A DNA stretch of 64,000 nt from Octopus vulgaris. Lineage: Eukaryota. Each line of letters starts with the position of its first letter. Within the stretch, counting starts at the first letter, position 1. Shown here piece after piece: positions 47,608 through 48,846 of this stretch. A program made the position numbers and the translations under genes. Below the pieces are notes generated by a model. That model was not told where the DNA came from, searched no databases, and saw nothing but the letters and a program-made list of their open reading frames with translations. The DNA lies in NCBI GenBank assembly GCA_951406725.2, contig OX597842.1, positions 30,752,001 to 30,816,000 on the forward strand, given 5' to 3'.

Positions 47608-47641
47608 CAAAATTTTATGAAACTTCTACAAGGCAAAGACT

Positions 47642-47835
47642 TCTTCCGAAGGTACGGATCCATTTTGCTGACTTCCCTTAACTACATTGGCGCTATCGAC
47701 GAGAGGCTGTACACGTTGGAGACCTGATGCGGATGGTGGGTACAGACTGACTCGAGTGCTGCGATTCGTTACGGACCCGGATTTTCCAGGGCCGCCGAGA
47801 GCGCACCGGACACCGCCCAAGACACGGCGCTCTAC
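47642..47835 (-). pseudogene. 28S rRNA fragment (non-functional)
   Basis: TACGGATCCATTTTGCTGACTTCC...GAGAGGCTGTACACGTTGGAGACCTGATGCGGAT...CGGATTTTCCAGGGCC...GCGCACCGGACACCG matches the antisense of conserved eukaryotic LSU rRNA. Confidence 0.88.
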
Positions 47836-47836
47836 A

Positions 47837-48404
47837 GGCGCAGGAGTGGCTGTGTGGTAAGTAGCCTGCTTACCAGCCACATGGTTCCGGGTTCAATCCC
47901 ACTGCGTGGCATCTTGGGCAAGTGTCTTCTACTATAGCCTCGGGCCGACCAATGCCTTGTGAGTGGATTTGGTAGACGGAAACTGAAAGAAGCCCGTTGT
48001 ATATAGATATATATACAGGCGCAGGAGTGGCTGTGTGGTAAGTAGCCTGCTTACCAACCACATGGTTCCGGGTTCATTCCCACTGCGTGGCACCTTGGGC
48101 AAGTGTCTTCTGCTATAGCCTCGGGCCGACCAATGCCTTGTGAGTGGATTTGGTAGACGGAAACTGAAAGAAGCCTGTTGTATGTGTGTGTTTGTGTGTC
48201 TGTGTTTGTCCCCCTAGCATTGCTTGACAACCGATGCTGGTGTGTTTACGTCCCCGTCACTTAGCGGTTCGGCAAAAGAGACCGATAGAATAAGTACTGG
48301 GCTTACAAAAGAATAAGTCCCGGGGTCGATTTGCTCGATTAAAGGTGGTGCACCAGCATGGCCGCAGTCAAATGACTGAAACAAGTAAAAGAGTAAAAGA
48401 GTAA
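47837..48404 (+). mobile_element. SINE family A with two heads
   Basis: Heads at 47837 and 48018; (GAGTAAAA)n tail. Confidence 0.92.
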
Positions 48405-48846
48405 AGGCAAAGACTGATAGTGACTTCGAAGTGTCATTCGCATGCTAGCATCAGCCTAATGACAGCGTCAAGTGCTGGGATTGAAACTGAAACCCAAGAG
48501 ATTGGGAAGTGAATACCTTGAGCAACACACTCAGCCACTGAATGTGCCAGATGTTTGGGTTTGAATATTTTAGTGGAATATTTAAGAAATGATGAGTGTA
48601 TATATGGGTATATATGTATGTTTGTGCGTGTATGTGTGTGAGTGTGTGTTGTGTTTCTGTCGATGAGGGTTTGCAAGTATTTACGTGTCTGTGTTTGTGT
48701 GTGTGTGTGCACGTGTATATATATGTATATGTGTGTATGTGTGTATATATGTGTGTATGTGTGTATATATGTGTGTATGTGCATAAGTCAGGTGTATGTC
48801 TATGCATTGTAAAATACACACACATACATATATGCTTACATAACAC

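What the first reader, a model, noticed from the sequence alone, without database searches (positions are those of the whole stretch)
47630..48415. Antisense 28S rRNA fragment and SINE inserted as one chimeric unit inside a 12-bp TSD
Seen: AAGGCAAAGACT at 47630-47641 and 48404-48415 brackets a ~195-bp 28S piece (antisense to the SINE) joined directly to the 5' end of a double-headed SINE A. Inference: a single retrotransposition event. Possible routes are a template switch or inversion onto rRNA, or 5' transduction from a source SINE sitting antisense inside an rDNA unit. If it is repeated genome-wide, it would be an rDNA-hosted or rRNA-headed SINE subfamily.
Basis: partly seen in the sequence, partly recalled or inferred. 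Interest (0 to 1): 0.72.

Follow-up and report, generated by a model that had tools for sequence, protein, structure and literature searches.

The report
Backwards 28S piece fused to SINE
A 199-base backwards copy of the animal's own large ribosomal RNA sits fused to the front of a common short jumping element inside one 12-base duplication; it is a one-off insertion, not a new repeat family, likely made when a reverse transcriptase copied two different RNAs from the two ends of one DNA cut, a rare accident already known from mammals.

Summary
Observation confirmed. The 12-mer occurs exactly twice and encloses a 199-bp antisense piece of the genome's own 28S (189/199 identical) fused head to head to a two-headed tRNA-like SINE. 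It is not a subfamily: the junction is unique in the 2.8-Gb assembly, 0 of 39 other copies of this 28S segment carry the SINE there, and 30 kb of the rDNA array hold no SINE. A switch onto sense rRNA would give the wrong orientation. Best reading (about 0.65): twin priming on two RNAs, as proposed for U5/L1 and antisense 5S, tRNA and 28S/L1 chimeras. In support are short overlaps at all three joints, equal decay of both parts, and a second independent case found here (L168, 13-bp TSD). Plain copies of this SINE sit mostly in TA runs, and 0 of 58 show a non-simple TSD of 7 bp or more, so these chimeras may use a different cut or enzyme. No empty site was seen and the enzyme is unidentified. The scan noted the same layout before on other DNA (e1-9824579, e1-10336289). 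New member of a known kind; modest interest.

The parts
47630..47641 (+). 5' copy of the 12-bp target-site duplication; its last 2 bases (CT) also match the 28S continuation
47640..47838 (-). 28S rRNA fragment, positions 2353-2551 of the genome's 28S, 189/199 identical; 6 of 10 changes are CpG transitions
47836..47838 (+). AGG shared by the 28S piece and the SINE start (TACAGG, 6 bases, if the template had a TA linker upstream as head 2 does; inferred)
47836..47999 (+). SINE head 1, tRNA-like; A-box-like 47847-47857 and B-box-like 47890-47900 (box consensus recalled, not from a call)
48000..48016 (+). TA-rich linker between the heads; the same linker occurs in one other two-headed copy (L053)
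48017..48183 (+). SINE head 2, 97% like head 1; both share a variant seen in only 1 of 41 other heads, so both come from one source
48184..48403 (+). SINE (TG)-rich linker, body and 3' tail ending in TAAAAGAG repeats (48386-48403); the last unit runs into AAG of the TSD
48404..48415 (+). 3' copy of the 12-bp target-site duplication; the flank beyond it is single-copy

Best explanation
The 28S piece and the SINE are enclosed by one 12-bp duplication and likely arrived in one retrotransposition event, probably by twin priming on two different RNAs. Shown: the layout TSD - antisense 28S - SINE - TSD, a unique junction, and overlaps of 2, 3 and about 3 bases at the joints. Inferred: an unidentified non-LTR endonuclease/reverse transcriptase cut the two strands 12 bases apart. 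The bottom-strand end primed on the SINE RNA's TAAAAGAG tail and copied the whole two-headed RNA. The top-strand end (...GACT) paired with AG at 28S positions 2550-2551 and copied about 200 nt of ribosomal RNA the other way. The two cDNAs were joined through the shared AGG. Which end primed first cannot be told. The product is a dead one-off: the SINE's internal promoter lies downstream of the rRNA piece, so the piece would not be carried into new copies.
For: TSD encloses both parts. Head-to-head orientation with 3'-truncated RNA and short complementarity at the top-strand end is the pattern that PMC4476161 (passages) ascribes to twin priming for U5/L1, and PMC13174262 (abstract and passages) for antisense chimeras. 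Non-CpG divergence is equal: 28S 4/151, SINE 12/462 against the majority of 30-41 copies (p=1.0). A second independent insertion has the same layout: L168, antisense 28S 4118-4302 fused to the SINE start inside a 13-bp TSD, with a displaced 20-nt piece of the same rRNA next to the TSD, like a false start. Dispersed rRNA pieces here look RNA-templated: 11 of 16 18S pieces end within positions 2590-2609 of 2643; L042 is 28S alone in a 16-bp TSD; L045 is sense 28S plus a second SINE in an 11-bp TSD. A contig of organism B spans SINE tail, TSD and right flank (48382-48620, 9 differences), so the SINE end is real and shared.
Against: No empty site was seen, and no listed contig crossed the TSD|28S joint in 4 runs (tables swamped by repeats and cut). 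Most dispersed rRNA pieces show no TSD: the scan of 117 blocks found 2 alone, 4 sense-plus-extra and 3 antisense-plus-extra, against 1, 10 and 9 of 466 shifted controls, so distant TSDs are not enriched in bulk. Overlaps of 2-3 bases are weak and fit end-joining as well. CpG decay is higher in the 28S part (6/48 against 1/46, p=0.11). The SINE's usual insertions lack such TSDs (0 of 58), and no partner LINE was found. L168's TSD was found by eye after the automatic scan missed it.
Confidence: 0.65

Rival explanations
1. One event, but the 28S piece is repair filler: during 5' joining of the SINE cDNA, end-joining captured or copied a stretch of rDNA, or a free rRNA cDNA, in whichever orientation fitted.
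For: Short overlaps at both ends of the piece. Most of 117 dispersed rRNA blocks lack a TSD. The displaced 20-nt piece in L168 also fits iterative templated end-joining.
Against: Both TSD-bounded cases with this SINE are antisense and head to head (n=2, weak). Breakpoints of 18S pieces cluster just before the mature RNA's end (11 of 16), which points to RNA templates in this genome.
Confidence: 0.2
2. Ordinary template switch or RNA ligation, but onto an antisense transcript of rDNA.
For: Sense chimeras of rRNA with SINEs exist here (L045), so the machinery can switch templates.
Against: It needs an antisense RNA with an end at this position; none was tested. It does not explain the CT match at the top-strand end.
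Confidence: 0.06
3. Two sequential insertions: a 28S retrocopy made the TSD and the SINE later landed at its edge (or the reverse) with little duplication of its own.
For: This SINE is dense and usually leaves no clear TSD, so a later insertion could hide. A lone 28S piece with a TSD exists (L042).
Against: The SINE would have to land exactly between the piece and the TSD, off its usual TA target, in two independent loci (window and L168). Equal non-CpG decay.
Confidence: 0.07
4. An rRNA-headed or rDNA-hosted SINE subfamily, or a 5' transduction from a source SINE lying antisense in an rDNA unit.
For: rDNA units here do host retroelements (intact RT ORF at the R2 site), and collapsed arrays could hide a rare source unit.
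Against: Junction found once; 0 of 39 other copies of the segment have it; no SINE in 30 kb of the array. L168 uses another part of 28S.
Confidence: 0.02

Closest known systems
Twin-priming chimeras of two RNAs: inverted U5, U1, U2 or U6 with L1 (Doucet et al. 2015, PMC4476161; passages seen)
   Same: 3'-truncated RNA piece in opposite orientation at the 5' end of a retroelement, one TSD around both, short complementarity at the top-strand end.
   Different: Here the partner is a full-length two-headed SINE rather than a 5'-truncated L1, the RNA is an internal 28S piece, there is no poly(A) tail, the cut does not match the L1 site TTTT/A, and the host is an invertebrate.
[quoted passage not shown]
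   Same: 28S piece of similar size (theirs 50-482 nt, median 269) inserted with a retroelement; antisense cases ascribed to twin priming.
   Different: 83% of their 18 cases are sense; the partner is L1; their timing rests on multi-species alignments, which I could not obtain here.
SINE28 and other rRNA-derived SINE families (named in PMC4758252, passage seen; details recalled)
   Same: 28S sequence joined to a retroposon.
   Different: SINE28 is a multi-copy family from the 3' end of 28S. This junction is single-copy, internal and antisense.

Membership tests
Two-RNA twin-priming chimera | One TSD encloses both parts | tested here: met
Two-RNA twin-priming chimera | Parts in opposite orientation, joined 5' end to 5' end | tested here: met
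Two-RNA twin-priming chimera | Complementarity of the top-strand 3' end to the second RNA and microhomology at the inner joint | tested here: inconclusive
   2 and 3 bases only; chance can give this
Two-RNA twin-priming chimera | Both parts arrive together (empty orthologous site with one TSD copy) | tested here: inconclusive
   No empty site seen; equal non-CpG decay
Two-RNA twin-priming chimera | Second template is RNA, not DNA | tested here: inconclusive
   Indirect only: 11 of 16 18S pieces end in one 20-nt window; no direct mark in this piece
L1-made chimera in the strict sense | L1 endonuclease site TTTT/A and poly(A) tail | tested here: not met
   Site reads CTAC|AAGG; tail is TAAAAGAG repeats
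Template-switch chimera (U6/L1 type) | Added RNA in the same orientation as the retroelement | tested here: not met
   28S is antisense
rRNA-headed SINE family (SINE28-like) | Many dispersed copies share the rRNA-SINE junction | tested here: not met
5' transduction from an rDNA-hosted SINE | Source SINE inside an rDNA unit at this position | tested here: not met
   unassembled units not testable
Named octopus SINE families (OK, OR1, OR2; names partly recalled) | Sequence match to the published consensus | not testable with these tools
   No repeat library on hand; ARAGORN and Rfam found no tRNA in the head

The most novel reading that the evidence does not exclude
Head-to-head rRNA-SINE insertions mark a second route for this SINE. 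Its normal copies go into TA runs with little or no duplication, but a cut with a 12-16-base stagger (another LINE's or a Penelope-type enzyme, or an odd second nick) leaves an overhang that primes on ribosomal RNA. Two-RNA twin priming would then be a recurrent habit of non-L1 machinery in an invertebrate germline, and these chimeras would fingerprint the enzyme.
Probability: 0.35. Interest if true: 0.5.

Novelty: new member of a known kind. Interest (0 to 1): 0.3.

Why it matters
As a locus it is inert debris. As a class it extends two-RNA twin priming from mammalian L1 to a SINE in an invertebrate, probably an octopus (inferred from the recalled SINE sequence and genome size). It also gives countable markers for which enzyme moves this very abundant SINE: both chimeras have 12-13-bp TSDs, while 0 of 58 plain copies nearby have a non-simple one of 7 bp or more. 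Such accidents are a plausible source of new SINE heads, but here the rRNA lies upstream of the internal promoter and has not spread.

Tried and rejected
Rfam on the window found nothing; ARAGORN found no tRNA. The idea that the 28S came from a parasite was dropped: it is 95% identical to the genome's own array. Laying contigs of five organisms on the locus gave no empty site and no piece across the TSD|28S joint; repeats swamped the tables. Residual depths at the piece's private letters were too ambiguous to use. No paralogous empty site exists, as the right flank is single-copy. The search for a LINE sharing the SINE tail in the fetched loci found only simple-repeat frames. The idea that TSD-less SINE copies hide long 5' adducts was not supported: 1 of 58 others had a distant 14-mer against 2 of 290 controls, and its intervening DNA looks like another repeat. 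Whether the C before head 2 came from the 28S by local duplication stays open; L050, L052 and L053 also have it. L169, L076 and L240 'TSDs' were discarded as tandem or repeat-internal duplications, and L149's extra 52 bp could not be placed. The bacterial promoter scan is irrelevant here. Paper searches (listings) showed no report of rRNA-SINE chimeras in octopus; PMC13282606 has no occurrence of rRNA, rDNA or chimer. PMC6007223 was seen as abstract only. No supplements were read; the tables of PMC13174262 may list antisense 28S cases in detail.

Full report
Observation. The 12-mer AAGGCAAAGACT stands at 47630-47641 and 48404-48415 and nowhere else in the window at up to one mismatch; no shuffle of 100 gave two matches. 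Between the copies lie a 28S piece and a SINE. A search of the 2.8-Gb genome with 47642-47836 scored 40 of 74 candidates, among them a tandem array on C20 at about 18-kb spacing, which Rfam calls eukaryotic LSU, SSU and 5.8S. The window matches that 28S at 189 of 199 bases (47640-47838, minus strand, 28S positions 2353-2551); six of the ten changes are CpG transitions. The SINE starts at 47836 with the usual first bases of the family, has two heads 97% alike and ends in TAAAAGAG repeats. The joints overlap by CT (TSD and 28S), AGG (28S and SINE) and about AAG (tail and TSD). The organism is probably an octopus; that rests on my recall of the SINE and on genome size, not on a call.

Is it a family? 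No. A 20-mer across the 28S|SINE joint has one exact match and three with two mismatches; none of the three has rDNA beside it. None of the other 39 scored copies of this 28S segment has the SINE at that point (19, 20). The SINE has no match in 30 kb of the array. The right flank is single-copy. So the rDNA-hosted source and the rRNA-headed subfamily both fail in this assembly; collapsed rDNA units could not be examined.

One event or two? The TSD encloses both parts, with a chance of about 1e-5 for such a fit. Non-CpG divergence is 4/151 for the 28S piece and 12/462 for the SINE against the majority of 30-41 other copies (p=1.0); CpG changes are 6/48 against 1/46 (p=0.11). On the scale used in PMC13282606 (distance 0.065 for 18 million years; passages) that is several million years (inference). 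I laid contigs of organisms B, C, E and F and of B, C, D and E. A contig of B runs from the SINE tail at 48382 through the TSD to 48620 with 9 differences, so the SINE end is shared with B. No listed piece crossed the TSD|28S joint and no empty site appeared; the tables were swamped by repeats and cut, so this test is inconclusive.

Does the layout recur? I collected dispersed 18S and 28S pieces with six searches and kept 117 blocks after dropping arrays, blocks near a locus edge, blocks over 1250 or under 90 bp, mixed-strand blocks and 10 duplicate or long loci; five kept blocks are copies of one captured piece. The automatic scan found 2 TSDs around the piece alone, 4 with extra DNA on the sense side and 3 on the antisense side (one is this locus), against 1, 10 and 9 of 466 shifted controls. 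Most pieces therefore have no TSD, and distant TSDs are not enriched in bulk. One other block had this SINE head to head at its 5' end: L168, with antisense 28S 4118-4302 fused to the SINE start. It too lies in a TSD (13 bp), which the scan missed because a 20-nt piece of the same rRNA (4088-4107) sits between the TSD and the main piece. L045 is sense 28S fused to a second SINE in an 11-bp repeat, and L042 is 28S alone in a 16-bp TSD. Eleven of 16 18S pieces end within 20 bases just before the RNA's last helix, which suggests RNA templates for such pieces in general. Earlier AI notes report a third head-to-head case with a 16-bp TSD in this genome (e1-9824579), one in another genome (e1-10336289) and dozens of sense 5.8S fusions (e1-8824462, e1-9997114); I did not check those loci.

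An unexpected contrast. Among 59 full-length copies of this SINE in the window and 400 kb around it, most sit in TA runs, and none of the 58 others has a non-simple TSD of 7 bp or more; an earlier look gave 1 of 22. TA runs can hide a TSD and decay can erase one. Both chimeras have 12-13-bp TSDs at non-repetitive sites (p=0.017 counting only L168). Either another enzyme moved these copies, or a long stagger is what allows the top strand to prime on a second RNA. I found no LINE sharing the SINE tail. PMC13282606 lists recently active RTE, Dong-R4, CR1, L1-Tx1 and Penelope families in an octopus, and an unchecked note (e1-8672319) describes twin-primed insertions into TA runs in this genome; these are leads only.

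Mechanism. A switch of the first-strand cDNA onto rRNA gives a sense piece, so it cannot make this layout. Twin priming on two RNAs does: the bottom strand copies the SINE RNA from its tail, the top-strand end pairs with AG in the rRNA and copies about 200 nt the other way, and the cDNAs join at AGG. Layout, overlaps and uniqueness are shown; the enzyme, the RNA nature of the 28S template and the order of priming are inferred. I put this at 0.65, repair filler from rDNA or cDNA at 0.2, two sequential insertions at 0.07, an antisense transcript at 0.06 and a subfamily at 0.02. Both heads share a variant found in 1 of 41 other heads, so they come from one source; multi-headed copies are common (14 of 59) and need no special explanation.

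Comparison with what is known. Doucet et al. (PMC4476161, passages) describe inverted, 3'-truncated U5, U1, U2 and U6 pieces on L1 inside one TSD and propose twin priming. Law and Burns (PMC13174262, abstract and passages) list 18 28S/L1 chimeras, 83% sense, and ascribe antisense chimeras to twin priming. This insertion works like those but is not an L1 product by site or tail. My six paper searches showed no report for octopus or for 28S with a SINE, but the library lacks most subscription papers.

Verdict. Real, single-copy, most likely one twin-primed insertion: a new member of a known kind, interest 0.3. The lead worth a census is the link between long TSDs and rRNA capture in a SINE that normally leaves none.

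Noticed in passing
L168 (G000 C1:131324300-131327600): Second antisense-28S/SINE insertion with a 13-bp TSD and a displaced 20-nt piece of the same rRNA beside the 5' TSD.
   Followed up: yes
L194, L195, L199, L202, L203 (C11, C17 twice, C9, C6): Five dispersed 28S pieces end at about position 1792 and continue into the same downstream sequence; in L195 it leads to a frame that looks like a Helitron Rep start (label recalled; Pfam gave no real hit). Likely an rDNA piece captured and spread by a DNA transposon; the junction pattern gave 4 hits.
   Followed up: partly
L296 (C20:24065400-24070600); L002, L011, L013-L016, L018, L019: 8 of 19 28S loci break at the R2 site (site recalled) with at least two different 5' ends; one holds an intact 1276-aa ORF with a reverse transcriptase domain. 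Several of these units lie outside the main array.
   Followed up: partly
L103, L106, L109, L114, L155-L159, L162, L163: 11 of 16 dispersed 18S pieces end at positions 2590-2609, just before the last helix of 18S: a preferred priming or break site on the RNA.
   Followed up: partly
L072, L074, L075, L080-L084, L147, L148: Ten dispersed 28S pieces begin at or just after the R2 site; some have related A-rich sequence upstream that may be element 3' ends.
   Followed up: no
L045, L173, L039, L042, L149: Other rRNA retrocopies: sense 28S fused to a second SINE family (L045 with an 11-bp TSD; L173 without one found), sense 28S plus 455 bp of unique DNA in a 13-bp repeat (L039), 28S in 16- and 20-bp TSDs (L042, L149).
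   Followed up: partly
window and 400 kb around it on C29: 14 of 59 full-length copies of this SINE have more than one head; most copies sit in TA runs.
   Followed up: partly
window about 46880-47609: Palindromic high-copy repeat with TTAGGG units next to the insertion; very deep in organisms B and E, mostly shallow in C and F.
   Followed up: no
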